Shown piece after piece: positions 4,610 to 46,089 of a stretch of DNA of 60,958 nucleotides (positions are counted from its first letter, which is position 1; the number at the start of each line of letters is the position of its first letter). The stretch covers positions 1-60,958 of the forward strand of contig JAYUQG010000028.1 of NCBI GenBank assembly GCA_043756865.1, given 5' to 3'. The stretch comes from a bacterium. GTDB lineage: Bacteria; Patescibacteriota; Minisyncoccia; Phycocordibacterales; UBA6899. Both the position numbers and the translations under genes were made by a program. Below the pieces are notes generated by a model, which ran no database searches, was not told where the DNA came from, and was given only the letters and a program-made list of their open reading frames with translations.

Positions 4610-4639
4610 AAAAAACGCGCAACAGTGTTGCGCGTTGAA

Positions 4640-6485: not shown

Positions 6486-8201
6486 TTACATCTGCGCTGG
6501 TGCCATTATACCAAGAAGTGCGAGTCCGCGCTCCATGACTTGCGCACAGGCAGAGACGAGTGCCAGTTTGTATGGTTCGTCGGGTGAGTCGCCTAAAATC
6601 TGTGTGTTGGCATAGTACGCATTAAACTCACGTGCGAGCTGGGTCAAGTATGTCACGATATAGTGTGGCTCGCGCTCTATACTGGCGCGGAGCACCACTT
6701 CGGGGAAAAAGAGGAGTGTGCGGTGCAGCGTCGACACCTCGCCGACTAATGCCTCGGGGTTTGCCTTTTTTTCACCTGCTTTCTCCAGAAGTGAATGTGC
6801 ACGCGCATTCGTATATTGCAGGTATGGACCCGAGTCTCCTTCAAATGAAAGAGATTGTTCTACATCAAAAATAATATCTTTGCCCGTAGCCTGCCGCAGT
6901 ATCGCGTATTTAATGGCACCCACAGCAACCATTTCCGCGATACGATCCTGCTCTTCATTGCTAAACATGCCTGCTTTAAACTTCTGGAGTGCAGTAGTTT
7001 TGGTGTCATTAATGAGCGTGTTTGCAGAAATCACATCCCCCGTACGTGAAGACATTTTGCCCGTGGTGAGCCGCATCATGCCGTGACTGATGTGTTCGGT
7101 CTTTGCCGCGAGTTCGGGAAAAACTTGAGCCATGGCATCGAGCAGCACCTTGAAATAGTCATTGATTTCATTGCCCGTAACCACAGTTGAGTGGTCGTAC
7201 GGATACGCGTCGTATTTAATTTTGGCGAGACCAAGCTCTTTTGCTTCATACGTGGGGAGGCCTTCTTTGTTCAAAAACACTCTCGTGTGCAGACCCATCG
7301 CCTCGTCGCCTTTATAAACAATCGCGCCGTCACTTTCTACAAATACCTCGGGATGTGCGTGCACGACCTCTTTGCCAAATATGCCAGTATTGCTTTCAAA
7401 AAAATAAAAGTCGAATGCTTTGCCCTCGGTACTGTTATGCGCAGTGCCCAGTCGTTTGTAGATAATCTCAAAATATTCCAAGCTCCATGCCCGGCCTAGG
7501 TCATAGAGCTGATTCACATGAGCGTCGTTTCGGTCATAAATCTTTTTGTTGAGCACTACGATATCGTGCTTTACAATGTCATCAAACTTTGCGGTCTGCG
7601 CTCCACGTGCATATGCCCGCCCGAGAAACTCTACTTTTGTGCCAATATCTGCAGACTCATCAGGAAGTGCCTCCTGTGTCATACCCCAGACGGCACTTGC
7701 AACATGAAGACCCACGTCTCCCTGATAGCAGGCGCGCTTCGTCTCCCCCCCTGATGCCTCCAGTATACGCGCGATAGATTCACCAATGGTATTGGACATC
7801 AGATGTCCAATATGAAATTCCTTAAACGGATTAGGGTCTGTGTATTCGACTATTACTTTTTTGTGCTTCAGTGTTTCGTTATTTCCATATGAGACTCCTT
7901 GCTGTAGTAGCTCGCCAAGTTCGCGAATGAAATAGCTTTTTGAGCAACGCACGTTGATAAACCCTGGACCGGCAATTTCCACCGCCGCGATGTCATCATC
8001 TTCCACTCGTTCAAGTAGTGATTTGATTTCCTCTGCAAATGCACGGGGGTTTTTGCCCAGCTTTTTTGCGGTCGCGAGTGCTACATTTGTCGAATAATCG
8101 CCGTGCGACATTTCCGCAGGCCGCTCTACGACAAATGACGTGTCGGTCACGCCCAGTTCTTTCAGTGCACTATTGATATACTCGCGAAGCTTCGTTTCCA
8201 T
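6486..8201 (-). CDS. argS: arginine--tRNA ligase
   Basis: Typical ArgRS N-terminal domain, HIGH-like FHIGHLMS and a C-terminal anticodon-binding DALR region. ATG 8201 (METKLREY) is preferred over the upstream TTG 8225. Confidence 0.95.
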   Translation of the reverse strand: METKLREYINSALKELGVTDTSFVVERPAEMSHGDYSTNVALATAKKLGKNPRAFAEEIKSLLERVEDDDIAAVEIAGPGFINVRCSKSYFIRELGELLQQGVSYGNNETLKHKKVIVEYTDPNPFKEFHIGHLMSNTIGESIARILEASGGETKRACYQGDVGLHVASAVWGMTQEALPDESADIGTKVEFLGRAYARGAQTAKFDDIVKHDIVVLNKKIYDRNDAHVNQLYDLGRAWSLEYFEIIYKRLGTAHNSTEGKAFDFYFFESNTGIFGKEVVHAHPEVFVESDGAIVYKGDEAMGLHTRVFLNKEGLPTYEAKELGLAKIKYDAYPYDHSTVVTGNEINDYFKVLLDAMAQVFPELAAKTEHISHGMMRLTTGKMSSRTGDVISANTLINDTKTTALQKFKAGMFSNEEQDRIAEMVAVGAIKYAILRQATGKDIIFDVEQSLSFEGDSGPYLQYTNARAHSLLEKAGEKKANPEALVGEVSTLHRTLLFFPEVVLRASIEREPHYIVTYLTQLAREFNAYYANTQILGDSPDEPYKLALVSACAQVMERGLALLGIMAPAQM

Positions 8202-17287: not shown

Positions 17288-17461
17288 AAGCTAAATAGTG
17301 AGGAGTAGTAAGTAGCAAGTAGAACGGAAAAGATTCATATATCACTTATAACACGCGAGCACGCACAATGTAGCAAACAGATAACGTGAGCAAATTTGAC
17401 ATTAGTATTTATATTGTGCGAGATTACATTTGGCGTAACTCTTGAATACAGAAAGGTCCCA

Positions 17462-17749
17462 ATGAGCAAATTTAGAGTTCTTATCACGAGCATTGCCACT
17501 ACCTCGGACGGTAGAGGTAGAAAAACTGGCTCCAGCATTGCGTGCCACGAGGTGTTAAATCTCACGGAAAACGCCGCACATTCTCTGGTACTACAAATAC
17601 AAGAACAAGAAGAAATCTACATGGACGGCGCCTACCTCAATCAGCGTGCGTTCATTATTGATACGGGTCGAGAGCTGTCGAGTAAGCAACCTACTCCAAG
17701 TTTCAACAAAGGTTACGACACGAGAGAAAACGTTCGACCTTTAGCATAG
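17462..17749 (+). CDS. hypothetical protein (95 aa) in an AT-rich spacer
   Basis: AAAGG lies 5 nt upstream of ATG 17462. No motif recognised. Confidence 0.4.
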   Translation: MSKFRVLITSIATTSDGRGRKTGSSIACHEVLNLTENAAHSLVLQIQEQEEIYMDGAYLNQRAFIIDTGRELSSKQPTPSFNKGYDTRENVRPLA

Positions 17750-17758
17750 AGCTATCTA

Positions 17759-17785
17759 TCACCCACCACAAAAACTGGCGGGTGA
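17759..17785. terminator. hairpin between the convergent 17462 ORF and murD
   Basis: tcaccc(a)cc ... gg(c)gggtga stem followed by T-rich sequence on the plus strand. Confidence 0.35.
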
Positions 17786-17786
17786 A

Positions 17787-19241
17787 TTATTTTGTATATT
17801 TTTTTACCAGCAAATTGAACTTTTCTCCTCTATCAAATTCGTGCAAAAATTTTTCAAAACTTGCGGCACCGGGAGAAAATAATATTGTTGTTTTGCCTTT
17901 CAAGGTTTTCGCAACGCGGAATGCCTCGTAAACGCAGGAATCTAAGTTTTTTAACACTTTTTTGTCAAGGTTTAACCTTGACATTCGTTTGTTGTTCGAA
18001 AGAACGGAGATAAGTTTGGGGGTCGCGGAGCCTTCCAAGAGAACAAGTCGTCCTGTCAGAACAAATTTTTTAATTGCGTGAGCAAGCACTGTAAATTCAA
18101 GTTCTTTATCTGTCCCACCGGCAATAAGCACAATGTTCCCCAGCTTGCGGAATCGCTCAATTGCAGCGACAACTCCGTCTGGCGACGTTGCGCAACTGTC
18201 GTTGACCACAGTGAGCTTTCCGCGTGTATACACTATTTCTTGTCGCATGGGCGGGTTGGGCAGTCGAAGAATATCGCGCGCAGTTATGCGTAGTGACGAA
18301 TCAAACAACAAGGTCGCCGCGAGTGCCGCGAGCAGATTGGCGAGGTTGTGAGTACCACGGAGACGGGCAAACTGTGTGACTGATACAATATTACGCTCTT
18401 CGTTGTTATGCCGGAATACCGCAATACCATTGTGCACAAAGACGCCGTTTTTGCACGCTCGAGGAAGTGGCTCTGTTGAAATAAAACATATTTGTGCTTG
18501 CGGCTTTTTCTGCGAAAAGTATTTCCACCACTTATTATCCCGATTGAGCACAAGAAAATCGCTGCTGAGTTGTGAGGCGAAAATTCCTGCCTTTGCATCG
18601 GCGTATTGTGTGATGTCTCCCCCATAACGATTAAGGTGGTCGCGATAAATATTGGTTATCACTGCAATATGCGGTCCGCGTTTCGCCTGGGGTAGGTATT
18701 CCAATTGCCATGATGAAAGCTCGGCTACGACGGGAATGCCTTTATTGTTTACTCTATCAAATTCCTTCAAGAGTGCATTGTCTGGAGTGTTGCCGCTCGG
18801 TCGCACCTGAGGATATTTATGTTTGAGTAACTCCGCAATCCAAAGCGTTGTTGTGGTTTTGCCGCGAGTTCCCGTCACTGCTATAACGGGGTTGGTGATG
18901 AAACGAAAAAAAAGGCTGGCATCATTTTCTATGCGCTTCTGCGCTCTCATTGCCGTTGCCAAAAATTCACTCTCGCGCGAAACTCCCGGATTTACGAGAA
19001 TGAGATCGTTTGACTTAAAATCAGCATGATTATGCGTACCCAAGACATAACGCATGCGCACATGTTGCAGCGCGCGAATTGATGGCATAAGTACCTCTTT
19101 TGTACGCTTATCGGTGGCAGTCACGCTCGCCCCGTGCCCCGCAAGCCACTTTGCAGTCGCAACACCCCCGCCATGAAGACCGAGTCCCATCACGAGGGCT
19201 TTTGTTCCGCGAAATAGCTGCTCATTTTTTTTCTTTTGCAC
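17787..19241 (-). CDS. murD: UDP-N-acetylmuramoylalanine--D-glutamate ligase
   Basis: N-terminal GLGLHGGGVATAKWL, the Mur ligase P-loop VTGTRGKTTT, and C-terminal SPGAASFEKF...RGEKF. Confidence 0.9.
   Translation of the reverse strand: MQKKKNEQLFRGTKALVMGLGLHGGGVATAKWLAGHGASVTATDKRTKEVLMPSIRALQHVRMRYVLGTHNHADFKSNDLILVNPGVSRESEFLATAMRAQKRIENDASLFFRFITNPVIAVTGTRGKTTTTLWIAELLKHKYPQVRPSGNTPDNALLKEFDRVNNKGIPVVAELSSWQLEYLPQAKRGPHIAVITNIYRDHLNRYGGDITQYADAKAGIFASQLSSDFLVLNRDNKWWKYFSQKKPQAQICFISTEPLPRACKNGVFVHNGIAVFRHNNEERNIVSVTQFARLRGTHNLANLLAALAATLLFDSSLRITARDILRLPNPPMRQEIVYTRGKLTVVNDSCATSPDGVVAAIERFRKLGNIVLIAGGTDKELEFTVLAHAIKKFVLTGRLVLLEGSATPKLISVLSNNKRMSRLNLDKKVLKNLDSCVYEAFRVAKTLKGKTTILFSPGAASFEKFLHEFDRGEKFNLLVKKYTK
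17963..17984. repeat. palindrome copy 1 (tgtcaaggtttaaccttgacat), inside murD coding sequence
   Basis: Its reverse complement equals ATGTCAAGGTTAAACCTTGACA, identical to 21379-21400 and 45959-45980. It encodes MSRLNLD in MurD. Confidence 0.9.
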
Positions 19242-21340: not shown

Positions 21341-21362
21341 AACCCGCCTAGGCGGGTTTTTT
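21341..21362 (+). terminator. intrinsic terminator after ftsH
   Basis: acccgc-ctag-gcgggt followed by ttttt. Confidence 0.7.
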
Positions 21363-21374
21363 CATTCCAAGAAA

Positions 21375-21405
21375 ATCAATGTCAAGGTTAAACCTTGACA
21401 TTGAT
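21375..21405. repeat. palindrome copy 2, a 31-nt perfect palindrome (15+1+15)
   Basis: atcaatgtcaaggtt-a-aaccttgacattgat. Confidence 0.9.
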
Positions 21406-23582: not shown

Positions 23583-23609
23583 AAAAAAGGTGCCGCATTA
23601 TGCGGCACC
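23583..23609 (-). terminator. intrinsic terminator overlapping the stop codon of the HD hydrolase gene
   Basis: Minus strand reads ggtgccgca-taa-tgcggcacc followed by tttttt. Confidence 0.6.
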
Positions 23610-45277: not shown

Positions 45278-45539
45278 ACTGAGGAATTAAGAGTAATCCA
45301 CTACCAAAGTAGGTAATTAACGAGTGTACACCAAAATCTCACACAATAACAAGGACACTTGTCCAAACCTTTCATGTATCGATGAAAAATTGCCCAGAGA
45401 TAGGAGCGCTTCGCTCGCCCGATGTCACACGCTTGCAAAGTACTACCTTGACATAATGAGCAGTGGCGGGGCACGTTATCGCATTGTGTTTGACACGCAC
45501 ACATGCTAATTTCACAGAAGCAGTACTGGGAATTTTTCT

Positions 45540-45958: not shown

Positions 45959-45981
45959 ATGTCAAGGTTAAACCTTGACAT
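45959..45981. repeat. palindrome copy 3, a 23-nt perfect palindrome
   Basis: atgtcaaggtt-a-aaccttgacat. Confidence 0.9.
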
Positions 45982-46089
45982 AAAAGGTCAAAAATGTGGC
46001 TTTAAATATAGTGCTTCGGCTCTCGGTTATGGCGCCCTTCAGTGCGAACACAGCGTGGGGGGTAAATTTCTTGTACAATTATAGGCATC

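What the first reader, a model, noticed from the sequence alone, without database searches (positions are those of the whole stretch)
21375..21405. Exact 22-nt palindrome ATGTCAAGGTTAAACCTTGACA present three times, plus a 12-nt half-site
Seen: identical 22-mers occur at 21379-21400 and 45959-45980, and in reverse orientation at 17963-17984. The local palindromes extend to 31 nt at 21375-21405 and 23 nt at 45959-45981. A half-site, ACCTTGACATAA, at 45445-45456 matches the right arm plus flank of copy 3. The two intergenic full copies sit about 120-145 nt upstream of plus-strand genes (21534 membrane protein, 46090 LamG/PG-binding protein). The half-site sits about 85-95 nt upstream of the 45540 ORF. 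Each arm contains TTGACA. Three exact 22-mers in 61 kb cannot be chance. Inference: this is either the operator of a dimeric DNA-binding protein or a small dispersed palindromic element (REP-, RPE- or uptake-signal-like).
Basis: seen in the sequence. Interest (0 to 1): 0.68.

Follow-up and report, generated by a model that had tools for sequence, protein, structure and literature searches.

The report
REP-like hairpin repeat of ultra-small bacteria
The three identical palindromes are copies of a hairpin-forming repeat that, across the ultra-small Patescibacteria (CPR) bacteria, brackets the gene of a REP-type tyrosine transposase, and that also sits unchanged inside essential genes; this is a known kind of system in an unexpected group of organisms, with unusual conservation.

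Summary
The exact 22-mer occurs three times (0 expected).

The 21-nt core TGTCAAGGTTWAACCTTGACA occurs in 61 public genome loci. 58 carry Patescibacteria names and come from three phylum-level groups. There are 12 exact copies in each of two Lloydbacteria MAGs.

The core, or a variant with matching changes in both arms, flanks all 11 genes examined of one Y1/HUH transposase family. Four of those genes were chosen by protein similarity alone. A predicted structure of this protein best matches the E. coli REP-associated tyrosine transposase bound to its REP hairpin. The gene is single-copy and keeps the same neighbours.

So the palindromes are REP-like hairpins of a RAYT-like system. The transposase gene itself is not in this window. 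The operator, promoter, uptake-signal and parS readings found no support.

Four features are unusual:
- there is no GT[AG]G guide;
- the outer stem is kept even where the transposases are only about 30% identical;
- copies at the murD and ftsH-downstream positions changed variant together between species;
- copies inside genes replace existing codons instead of adding length.

Verdict: a new variant of a known kind. The biochemistry is inferred, not shown.

The parts
17963..17984 (-). Copy 1. Exact 22-mer on the minus strand (21-nt palindrome core 17963-17983), in frame inside murD, where it encodes MSRLNLD.
   Evidence: The same position in murD carries the palindrome in two other Lloydbacteria (L050, L022): 20 of 21 columns are invariant while the upstream ~40 nt are full of indels. 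Variants sit at the same position in L066, L067, L068 and L069.
17931..17962 (-). A-tract flank following copy 1 on the minus strand (AAAAAGTGTTAAAAAACTTAGATTCC). It resembles the start of the Lloydbacteria 'tail'. Together with the palindrome arm it gives TTGACA-18-TAGATT.
   Evidence: This is the only promoter-like match at any of the three copies. It is coding sequence (KKVLKNLDS), and no function has been shown.
17787..19241 (-). murD (UDP-N-acetylmuramoylalanine-D-glutamate ligase), the host gene of copy 1.
   Evidence: Pfam Mur_ligase_M and MurD-like_N. PDB MurD hits. 120 homologues.
21375..21405 (.). Copy 2. A 31-nt perfect palindrome (core 21380-21400 plus a copy-specific 5-bp extension, ATCAA/TTGAT), intergenic.
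   Evidence: As single-stranded DNA it forms a 14-bp hairpin, dG -14 kcal/mol, z = -8.3. A counterpart sits at the same position after the ftsH terminator in L066, carrying that genome's variant.
21341..21364 (+). Intrinsic-terminator-like hairpin of ftsH (AACCCGCCTAGGCGGGTT + T-run), between the ftsH stop codon and copy 2.
   Evidence: The same order (stop codon, terminator, palindrome) is seen in L066.
45959..45981 (+). Copy 3. A 23-nt perfect palindrome (core 45960-45980), intergenic.
45981..46011 (+). One-sided 'tail' attached to copy 3 (TAAAAGGTCAAAAATGTGGCTTTAAATATAG). It belongs to the Lloydbacteria repeat unit AAAAA-N5-AAAATATGGCTTAAAATATAG.
   Evidence: The tail is found next to about 12 other copies, and almost only next to the palindrome. 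It points outward on both sides of the transposase gene in L034 and on the side held in L065.
45433..45453 (+). It could be a decayed copy or a chance match with a plain TTGACA.
   Evidence: About 0.3 such matches are expected by chance, so it is not established as part of the system.

Best explanation
The 21-22-nt palindromes are REP-like hairpin sequences. They are the DNA partners of a Patescibacteria-wide family of RAYT-like (REP-associated) Y1/HUH tyrosine transposases.

Shown:
- The same palindrome, or a variant changed symmetrically in both arms, brackets the transposase gene in every case examined (a 'REPtron' arrangement).
- Solitary copies are dispersed and strongly enriched between genes.
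- Copies inside genes always lie in a reading frame that has no stop codon.
- The transposase gene is single-copy and keeps the same neighbours.
- The copies at the murD and ftsH-downstream positions carry the same variant within each genome, but different variants in different genomes.

Inferred:
- When the DNA is single-stranded (at replication forks), each palindrome folds into a 9-10-bp hairpin (up to 14 bp in copy 2).
- The transposase dimer recognises this hairpin mainly through the conserved outer stem TGTCAAG/CTTGACA.
- Cleavage and rejoining by the HUH/Tyr active site spreads copies, or rewrites them to match each other.

The three window copies are solitary members of this family. 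The transposase gene lies elsewhere in the genome. Any benefit to the host (a -35-like TTGACA, an RNA hairpin, a protein-binding site) is unproven.
For: 1. Distribution. The exact 21-mer is in 61 genome loci. 58 carry Patescibacteria names (Lloyd-, Taylor-, Nomura-, Vogel-, Gottesmanbacteria, Saccharibacteria), and there are 12 copies in each of two Lloydbacteria MAGs. Taxonomy. About 0.3 matches are expected by chance in 596 Gb (own calculation). There are none in 2.9 million viral contigs.

2. Link to the transposase. The palindromes flank a 220-230-aa protein on both sides in L034 and L023, and on at least one side in L036, L053 and L029. The protein matches Pfam Y1_Tnp at 36-43 bits, above the cut-off of 23. 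It matches NCBIfam 'REP-associated tyrosine transposase' at E 1e-9 to 8e-12. The HUH motif and the catalytic Tyr are invariant.

3. Independent test. Four homologues were picked by protein similarity only. All four are flanked on both sides by the palindrome or a symmetric variant. In a metagenome sample of TGTCAAG-N7-CTTGACA matches, 11 of 120 loci carry the transposase gene. In most of them it lies right next to the hairpin, including transposases only about 30% identical, and flanking pairs are reverse complements of each other.

4. Structure. The AlphaFold model has pLDDT 89. Its best PDB match is 4er8, the E. coli REP-associated tyrosine transposase bound to a REP hairpin (E 3e-6). IS608 and ISDra2 TnpA follow at about 1e-3.

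5. Matching changes in both arms. 26 of 127 matches have all three inner pairs complementary, against 2 expected, with at least 9 different inner sequences. Transposase paralogues carry their own variants (L010, L005).

6. REP-like genomics. 39 of 68 copies are intergenic although only 10.9% of the DNA is non-coding, p = 1e-20. The transposase gene sits in the same rplS - transposase - pseudouridine synthase neighbourhood in L034, L062 and L065. Most of its protein clusters occur on a single contig.

7. Hairpin stability. dG is -8.5 to -14 kcal/mol, z -4 to -8.
Against: - No transposase homologue is in the window itself (tblastn; HMM). Its presence in this genome is therefore inferred from relatives.
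- The canonical REP hallmark, a 5' GT[AG]G guide at the foot of the hairpin (PMC6006769), is absent.
- NCBIfam's curated cut-off is not reached: 38-45 bits against 80.
- Copy number is low (about 12 exact copies per genome) compared with classic REPs.
- Copies inside genes are not clean insertions. In LigA of L030 the palindrome aligns without any gap to the Bacillus sequence. In MurD the linker is only +1 aa relative to the closest homologues that lack the palindrome. In GatB it is +2 aa. Simple copy-and-paste transposition does not explain this.
- No binding or cleavage has been demonstrated.
Confidence: 0.75

Rival explanations
1. The palindromes are fixed chromosomal sites with a host function, such as nucleoid organisation, a replication-fork or segregation signal, or a parS-like site. 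They are bound by a domesticated, no longer mobilising Y1 protein or by another protein. New copies then arise by mutation and selection at their location, not by transposition.
For: - The murD copy is kept in several species whose murD DNA is only 65-70% identical.
- The murD and ftsH-downstream copies are positional counterparts in the window and in L066, and both switched to the same variant.
- Copies inside genes replace codons without changing length.
- Copy number is low.
- The outer stem is unchanged across transposases that are only about 30% identical.
Against: - No host phenotype or partner protein is known.
- The closest relative (L068) has let the murD copy decay by 3 substitutions, L069 has an imperfect copy, and L022 lacks the ftsH-downstream copy.
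- There is no link to ParB or parS, and whether copies cluster near the origin could not be tested.
- This reading partly overlaps with the best explanation and does not exclude it.
Confidence: 0.15
2. The palindrome is the operator of a dimeric transcription factor, and/or a bidirectional -35 promoter module (TTGACA in each arm) that controls a regulon.
For: - It is a perfect two-fold symmetric sequence with a consensus -35 hexamer in both arms.
- Copies 2 and 3 lie 109-133 nt upstream of plus-strand genes.
- Upstream of the transposase gene in L034, TTGACA-17-GAGAAT-7-ATG can be read directly from the sequence.
- Copy 1 gives TTGACA-18-TAGATT.
Against: - No acceptable -10 element lies near copies 2 and 3.
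- Many copies sit mid-gene in MurD, GatB, RecJ, LigA and ArgRS, or directly after stop codons.
- The orientation of the flank relative to the next gene is 5 with and 4 against.
- Neighbouring genes share no function.
- Variants with non-symmetric 3-5-nt loops but conserved stems (L153, L160) fit a hairpin better than a duplex operator.
Confidence: 0.05
3. The palindrome acts mainly at the RNA level, as a transcript-end hairpin that terminates transcription or protects the 3' end.
For: - The terminator scan flags copies 2 and 3 on the minus strand: a 10-14-bp stem followed by a T-rich run.
- Many copies lie 0-20 nt after a stop codon.
Against: - In the window, the T-runs are on the strand where no gene ends.
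- ftsH already has its own terminator in front of copy 2.
- The copies inside genes and the specific link to a DNA transposase remain unexplained.
- No Rfam family matches.
Confidence: 0.04
4. The three copies are a chance repeat, an assembly duplication, or part of a larger repeated segment.
For: None was found.
Against: - None of 100 shuffles gave a match.
- The flanks of the three copies are unrelated.
- The same 21-mer occurs in dozens of independent assemblies from different studies.
Confidence: 0.01

Closest known systems
REP / RAYT (TnpA_REP) systems, 'REPtrons', of E. coli, Pseudomonas and other bacteria (REPIN-RAYT)
   Same: - A single-copy Y1/HUH tyrosine transposase gene is bracketed by inverted copies of a short hairpin-forming palindrome.
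- That palindrome is also dispersed through the chromosome, mostly between genes.
- Each transposase paralogue has its own palindrome variant.
- The gene keeps the same neighbours and is inherited vertically.
- The best structural match is the E. coli enzyme bound to its REP hairpin (4er8).
   Different: - There is no 5' GT[AG]G guide tetranucleotide.
- The palindrome is perfect, 21 nt, with a 1-3-nt centre.
- There are only about a dozen exact copies per genome.
- Copies occur mostly singly, not as REPIN doublets.
- REPs are described as species-specific (PMC6006769), yet here the outer stem, and often all 21 nt, is identical across phylum-level lineages.
- The hosts have genomes of about 1 Mb (from general knowledge), whereas non-IS TnpA_Y1 genes are reported to favour large genomes (PMC6006769).
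- The protein is about 225 aa, has an extra C-terminal part, and scores below NCBIfam's cut-off for this family.
IS200/IS605 insertion sequences (TnpA_IS200 with subterminal hairpins; IS608, ISDra2)
   Same: - The catalytic fold and motifs are the same (Pfam Y1_Tnp; Foldseek hits at about 1e-3).
- Hairpins lie at both ends of the gene.
- The chemistry presumably acts on single-stranded DNA.
   Different: - The gene is not multi-copy.
- It sits at a fixed position with the same neighbours.
- The hairpins at the two ends are the same sequence in inverted orientation.
- Most hairpin copies are solitary, without a transposase.
- There is no tnpB.
Rickettsia palindromic elements (RPE)
   Same: Palindromic repeats are tolerated in frame inside protein-coding genes of a bacterium with a reduced genome, where they add or change a short peptide segment (from general knowledge).
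   Different: RPEs are about 100-150 bp, add a whole peptide module, and have no known associated transposase. Here the unit is 21 nt (7 codons), it replaces existing codons, and it has a cognate Y1 transposase family.
DNA uptake sequences (USS of Haemophilus, DUS of Neisseria) and parS sites
   Same: Short exact motifs are conserved over wide phylogenetic distances. They are tolerated inside genes in particular reading frames and arise where they sit, without length change (from general knowledge).
   Different: Uptake sequences occur about once per kb and work as single 9-12-mers. Here single arms are not enriched. The canonical parS sequence is absent from the window, and no ParB link was found.

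Membership tests
REP/RAYT system (REPtron) | The associated protein is a Y1 HUH transposase with an HUH motif and a catalytic tyrosine. | tested here: met
   Pfam PF01797 at 36-43 bits, above the cut-off of 23. N-H-F-H and Y-I-H-L-N-P are invariant in 20-30 sequences.
REP/RAYT system (REPtron) | The protein belongs to the curated RAYT equivalog (NCBIfam NF047646). | tested here: not met
   It is the only NCBIfam hit (E 1e-9 to 8e-12), but at 38-45 bits against a cut-off of 80. The protein is a distant relative.
REP/RAYT system (REPtron) | The fold is closest to TnpA_REP and not to IS200-type TnpA. | tested here: met
   Foldseek best hit is 4er8_A (E 3e-6, TM 0.64 on the target). IS608 and ISDra2 follow at about 1e-3. 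The model has pLDDT 89.
REP/RAYT system (REPtron) | The transposase gene is flanked by copies of the palindrome in inverted orientation. | tested here: met
   All 11 genes examined have it, including 4 chosen by protein similarity only. Further cases are in the metagenome sample, where the inner sequences of flanking pairs are reverse complements of each other.
REP/RAYT system (REPtron) | The same palindrome is dispersed in multiple copies, mainly outside genes. | tested here: met
   12 exact copies in each of two MAGs and 3 in the window. 57% of copies are intergenic although 10.9% of the DNA is non-coding, p = 1e-20. However, about 40% overlap ORFs, 21 of them in ORFs of 150 aa or more.
REP/RAYT system (REPtron) | A 5' GT[AG]G guide tetranucleotide lies at the foot of the hairpin (canonical REP; PMC6006769). 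| tested here: not met
   Flank profiles of 68 oriented copies show only an A/T preference at positions -1/-2 and +1/+2. There is no GTAG or GTGG. Quentin et al. (PMC6006769) also describe atypical motifs without it for subclass 2.6 and class 3.
REP/RAYT system (REPtron) | The transposase gene is single-copy, vertically inherited, and keeps the same neighbours. | tested here: met
   The order rplS - transposase - pseudouridine synthase - uppS is seen in L034, L062 and L065 (uppS only in L062 and L065) at 65-74% protein identity. Most protein clusters are seen on one contig. No formal phylogeny was made.
REP/RAYT system (REPtron) | REPIN doublets: two REPs in inverted orientation less than about 130 bp apart form the mobile unit. 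| tested here: not met
   Copies are nearly all single. Only L006 shows a cluster, with 4 copies in 270 nt.
REP/RAYT system (REPtron) | The enzyme binds and cleaves the hairpin as single-stranded DNA. | not testable with these tools
   This needs biochemistry. Only the stability of the hairpin was computed.
IS200/IS605 insertion sequence | It is a multi-copy mobile unit (tnpA with or without tnpB) with distinct left and right subterminal hairpins. | tested here: not met
   The gene is single-copy with the same neighbours. The hairpins at both ends are identical. Solitary hairpins far outnumber the genes.
Rickettsia palindromic element (RPE)-like | A palindromic module of about 100-150 bp is inserted in frame, adding a peptide segment. 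| tested here: not met
   The unit is 21 nt. MurD is +1 aa, LigA 0 aa and GatB +2 aa relative to homologues without it.
Transcription-factor operator / promoter module | It has a consistent position and orientation upstream of regulated genes, with a usable -10 element. | tested here: not met
DNA uptake sequence | The single 9-12-nt motif is strongly over-represented on its own. | tested here: not met
   AACCTTGACA with up to 1 mismatch: 9 matches, 6 of them the palindrome arms, against 4.7 expected.
parS / ParB centromere | There is a parS-like sequence bound by ParB, clustered near the origin. | tested here: inconclusive
   Canonical parS is absent from the window. Distance from the origin and the presence of ParB could not be assessed from the fragments held.

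The most novel reading that the evidence does not exclude
Patescibacteria carry an ancient, vertically inherited hairpin-plus-Y1-transposase system with these properties:
- The outer stem of the hairpin (TGTCAAG/CTTGACA) has stayed the same across the whole radiation.
- Copies occupy fixed positions shared between species, including in frame inside essential genes.
- New or renewed copies are written over the existing 21 nt without changing length.
- Copies at shared positions switched variant together, as seen for one genome pair.

This would imply either a templated 'overwrite' or conversion activity of an HUH enzyme on single-stranded DNA, or a host function for the sites. Either goes beyond selfish REP spread, and in the smallest known bacterial genomes.
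Probability: 0.3. Interest if true: 0.8.

Novelty: new variant of a known kind. Interest (0 to 1): 0.62.

Why it matters
REP/RAYT systems have been described mainly in Proteobacteria and a few other phyla. Non-IS Y1 transposases are reported to favour large genomes (PMC6006769). I found no paper in the searchable library that links RAYT, REPIN, REP or IS200 to Patescibacteria.

This matters for three reasons:
- Genomes of about 1 Mb have little room for selfish DNA. A conserved hairpin-transposase pair across three phylum-level lineages therefore argues that the system is kept for a reason.
- It gives a simple marker, TGTCAAG-N7-CTTGACA next to a 225-aa Y1 gene, for studying the system.
- The copies that replace codons in frame, and the paired change of variant at shared positions, are a concrete and testable hint that Y1/HUH enzymes can rewrite DNA at a fixed place rather than only insert it.

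For annotation, the repeat explains odd peptide segments ((M/L)SR(L/F)NLD, CQGLTLT, and C-termini ending ...VKVxP) and mis-called gene starts in CPR proteins.

Tried and rejected
- Literature search for the two 10-mers: only unrelated primers and shRNAs.
- Rfam and tRNA scans of the window: nothing.
- Sigma-70 promoter scans at the three copies: a match only at the copy inside murD.
- The Lloydbacteria 'tail' as a promoter: the -10-like elements are at the wrong spacing, and the orientation relative to the next gene is 5 with and 4 against. The tail is almost never found without the palindrome.
- Uptake-signal idea: single arms are not enriched.
- Canonical parS: absent.
- Viral contigs: no copy.
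- Sequence and HMM search of the transposase against PDB sequences: nothing from the single sequence, and only a marginal ISDra2 hit from the profile. The fold search was needed.
- Aligning the ftsH-downstream spacer of the window with L022 to find insertion boundaries: too diverged to align.
- Clean-insertion model for copies inside genes: rejected for LigA and MurD.
- Flanking gene orientation of intergenic copies (16 tandem, 8 convergent, 5 divergent; counted by hand): not different from expectation.
- 'Positions 10 and 12 are always complementary, so the target is a duplex operator': rejected after the metagenome sample showed transposase-flanking hairpins with non-symmetric 3-5-nt loops.
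- The single non-CPR hit (a Tissierellia MAG, L046) is compatible with chance, given about 0.3 expected matches in 596 Gb.
Full report
**1. Observation**

The 22-mer ATGTCAAGGTTAAACCTTGACA is exact at 21379-21400 (+), 45959-45980 (+) and 17963-17984 (-). No match with up to 3 mismatches appeared in 100 dinucleotide-preserving shuffles. The symmetric core is 21 nt: TGTCAAGGTT-W-AACCTTGACA. The perfect palindrome is 31 nt in copy 2 (21375-21405), 23 nt in copy 3 (45959-45981) and 21 nt in copy 1. The window holds no copies with 1-4 mismatches.

Read as a 21-mer (45433-45453), it matches 15 of 20 positions, and about 0.3 such matches are expected by chance. The single 10-nt arm is not enriched.

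**2. Context in the window**

- Copy 1 lies inside murD (17787-19241, minus strand; Pfam Mur ligase domains) and encodes MSRLNLD.
- Copy 2 follows the ftsH stop codon (21335) and a terminator-like hairpin (21341-21364). It ends 133 nt before a small DUF4870 membrane-protein gene.
- Copy 3 lies 109 nt upstream of a LamG/PG-binding protein gene.
- No sigma-70-like promoter uses the TTGACA arms of copies 2 or 3. Copy 1 gives TTGACA-18-TAGATT on the minus strand.
- There are no Rfam families and no tRNAs in the window.
- The best named MurD relative is a Lloydbacteria MAG at 65% identity. The window therefore probably comes from a Lloydbacteria-like member of the Parcubacteria.

**3. Distribution**

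An exact-match scan of one genome for each of 185,579 species found the 21-mer in 61 loci. 58 carry Patescibacteria names: Lloyd-, Taylor-, Nomura-, Vogel- and Gottesmanbacteria, Paceibacterota and Saccharibacteria. Two come from an unnamed 'uncultured bacterium' bin, and one from a Tissierellia MAG. These names span the Parcubacteria group, the Microgenomates group and Saccharimonadota. About 0.3 matches are expected by chance in 596 Gb (own calculation), so the single outlier may be chance. Two Lloydbacteria MAGs hold 12 exact copies each. No copy was found in 2.9 million viral contigs.

Of 68 exact copies (65 in the fetched loci plus the 3 in the window), 39 are fully intergenic, although only 10.9% of that DNA is non-coding (p = 1e-20).

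**4. Copies inside genes**

21 copies lie in ORFs of 150 aa or more. The hosts are unrelated and mostly housekeeping genes, identified from conserved sequence motifs and, for three of them, PDB matches:
- MurD, three times, at the same residue;
- GatB, twice;
- RecJ, twice;
- LigA, at two different positions;
- ArgRS;
- a UvrC-like protein;
- glycosyltransferases.

19 copies are in the one frame that is open on both strands, giving (M/L)SR(L/F)NLD. Two are in the frame that is open only when the centre is T, giving CQGLTLT. None is in the frame with stop codons.

**5. The key link: a transposase gene**

Where two or three copies lie close together, they bracket a gene of 222-228 aa (L034, L023). 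Homologues lie next to single copies in L036, L053 and L029. Further homologues lie in L005 and L010, though not next to an exact copy; each has its own variant hairpin at its gene ends.

- The protein matches Pfam Y1_Tnp (the IS200-like transposase family) above the gathering score.
- Its only NCBIfam hit is 'REP-associated tyrosine transposase', below that model's strict cut-off.
- The HUH motif (NHFH) and the catalytic tyrosine (YIHLNP) are invariant.
- An AlphaFold model (pLDDT 89.3) best matches 4er8, the E. coli REP-associated tyrosine transposase bound to a REP hairpin (E 3e-6). IS608 and ISDra2 TnpA come next at about 1e-3.
- The family has more than 6,000 members at E <= 1e-10. The few that carry names are all from Patescibacteria or an unnamed bacterium. 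Most clusters are seen on a single contig.

**6. Independent tests of the link**

Four homologues were chosen by protein similarity only (P0043, P0073, P0068, P0002). All four are flanked on both sides by the palindrome or a symmetric variant:
- L065 has exact copies on both sides, with centres T and A;
- L064 has centre G;
- L063 has TGTCAAGGTCSGACCTTGACA;
- L062 has TGTCAAGACTAAGTCTTGACA.

Paralogues carry their own variants: L010 has TGTCGAGGTCSGACCTCGACA, once as a 39-nt perfect palindrome, and L005 has ACGAGGTCGAACCTCGT.

A capped metagenome scan for TGTCAAG-N7-CTTGACA returned 120 loci.
- 11 of them contain the Y1 gene, in most cases right next to the match. Some of these proteins are only about 30% identical to the queries (L091, L156).
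- Flanking pairs are reverse complements of each other.
- 26 of 127 matches have all three inner pairs complementary, against 2 expected, with at least 9 different inner sequences. This shows matching changes in the two arms.
- Some hairpins beside the transposase gene have non-symmetric loops of 3-5 nt (L153, L160). This fits a hairpin better than a symmetric duplex site.

In L034, L062 and L065 the gene sits in the same rplS - Y1 - pseudouridine synthase neighbourhood. That is what is expected of a vertically inherited single-copy RAYT, not of an insertion sequence. Many of these genes end inside the downstream palindrome, with C-termini ...VKV(K/E/Q/G)P.

**7. The window has no Y1 gene**

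None was found by tblastn or by an HMM built from the family. The three copies are therefore solitary members of the family.

**8. Evolution at shared positions**

The murD copy is present in L050 and L022 as well. 20 of 21 columns are invariant, and only the centre base flips. Yet murD DNA is only 65-70% identical, and the 40 nt upstream are full of indels.

Among the 120 closest MurD proteins, 9 carry SR[LF]NLD and 15 carry SRxxLD variants. All are among the nearest ~45 hits.

At the DNA level:
- L066 has TGTCAAGGTCGGACCTTGACA in murD. It also has TGTCAAGGTCTGACCTTGACA after the ftsH terminator. These are the positional counterparts of window copies 1 and 2, and both have switched to the same variant.
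- L067 has a GGCG/CGCC variant with a 5-bp extension.
- L069 has an imperfect copy.
- The closest relative, L068, has TATCAAGATTAAACCTTGATA. Its outer change is matched in both arms, and one further change is not.
- L022 has no copy after ftsH.

So the copies are old, fixed in position and kept symmetric. For the one genome pair where two shared positions could be compared, both copies had changed to the same variant. Copies can also decay or be lost.

**9. Replacement, not insertion**

- The MurD linker between two conserved anchors has a median of 27 aa with the palindrome, 26 aa in the closest clade without it, and 20-25 aa in more distant homologues.
- In LigA of L030, LSRLNLDN aligns to FLRLNEER of the Bacillus enzyme with no gap. 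Both have 21 residues between RGEA and FAN.
- GatB is +2 aa.

A simple insertion of 21-24 nt does not fit. The sequence was either written over existing codons or acquired through mutation.

The palindrome also extends into copy-specific flanks far more often than chance allows. 44 of 68 copies extend by at least 1 bp (17.6 expected), 19 by at least 3 bp (1.2 expected) and 9 by at least 5 bp (0.1 expected). This pattern is what template switching between the arms of a palindrome would produce (inference).

**10. The Lloydbacteria 'tail'**

In Lloydbacteria the repeat unit is the palindrome plus a one-sided 32-nt A-tract tail, AAAAA-N5-AAAATATGGCTTAAAATATAG. Window copy 3 has it (45981-46011). 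It points outward on both sides of the Y1 gene in L034 and on the side held in L065. It is almost never found without the palindrome. It points toward the next gene in 5 cases and against it in 4, so it is not an obligatory promoter. Its role is unknown.

**11. Interpretation**

The palindromes are REP-like hairpins that belong to a RAYT-like Y1 transposase family specific to, and widespread in, Patescibacteria. The arrangement and the genomics are shown. Hairpin recognition and cleavage or rejoining by the enzyme are inferred from the family (4er8; PMC6006769).

The system departs from canonical REP systems in several ways:
- there is no GT[AG]G guide;
- the palindrome is perfect and short;
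- copy number is low;
- there are no REPIN doublets;
- the outer stem, and often the whole 21-mer, is conserved across phylum-level lineages, whereas REPs are described as species-specific (PMC6006769);
- the hosts have very small genomes, whereas non-IS Y1 genes are reported to favour large ones (PMC6006769).

In-frame REP insertions have been reported before (PMC6006769), so that feature alone is not new. The replacement without length change, and the paired change of variant at shared positions, are the unexplained parts. No paper in the searchable library links RAYT, REPIN, REP or IS200 with Patescibacteria.

**12. Verdict**

The feature is real and not an artefact. It is best filed as a new variant of the REP/RAYT kind. 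The operator/promoter, uptake-signal, parS and RNA-terminator readings have little or no support. A host-function reading of the sites is not excluded.

Noticed in passing
window 17288-17786: There is a gap of about 500 nt between the murD stop codon and the glmS start. It has no Rfam match. A small opposite-strand ORF (17396-17749 +, 117 aa) has counterparts at the same position (76-130 aa) in L066, L068 and L069.
   Followed up: partly
window 4614-4636, 7790-7812, 23589-23609: Three other perfect odd-length palindromes, each unique: AACGCGCAACAGTGTTGCGCGTT, TATTGGACATCAGATGTCCAATA and GGTGCCGCATTATGCGGCACC. They are probably terminators and are unrelated to the repeat family.
   Followed up: no
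L043 about 1816-1860 (LigA gene, minus strand): A 15-nt tandem duplication (CCTATGTCAAGGTTA twice) abuts the palindrome, giving PMSRL-PMSRL-NLDS. Judging from the known ligase consensus (from memory), the palindrome seems to overlap the conserved PMLSLD-type motif of NAD-dependent ligases. This hints that copies may start at sequences that already resemble one arm.
   Followed up: partly
L023 2547-4160: Three palindromes lie within 1.6 kb, around a 176-aa ORF and the Y1 gene. Next to the first palindrome is a copy of about 19 nt of the 5' end of the downstream ruvC gene. This suggests the whole segment was inserted between a yebC-like gene and ruvC.
   Followed up: no
L006 555-830: A Saccharibacteria MAG holds a cluster of four palindrome-like copies (one exact, three with 4 mismatches) within 270 nt. 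It is the only BIME-like array seen.
   Followed up: no
L010 65-777 and 5479: The same Lloydbacteria genome has a second, diverged Y1 paralogue (39% identity, with an internal stop codon) that has its own hairpin variant, TGTCGAGGTCSGACCTCGACA. One copy is a 39-nt perfect palindrome.
   Followed up: partly
Proteins P0014, P0055, P0113 and many Y1 C-termini (alignment A3): Gene callers extend Y1 and other ORFs through the palindrome. This produces spurious N-terminal CQGLTLT or MSRxxLD segments, and C-termini ending ...VKVxP, because the stop codon lies inside the palindrome (GTCAAGGTTNAACCTTGA).
   Followed up: partly
L046 957-977 (Tissierellia MAG): This is the only exact copy outside CPR-type genomes. 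It has a 5-bp extension and a T-run just upstream of a gene. It may be a chance terminator hairpin (about 0.3 chance matches are expected in the collection) or a contaminating contig.
   Followed up: no
Metagenome loci L070-L189: 13 matches of the form TGTCAAG-AAAAAAA-CTTGACA turned up in the sample. They are unrelated to the Y1-associated family and are probably a different repeated hairpin.
   Followed up: no
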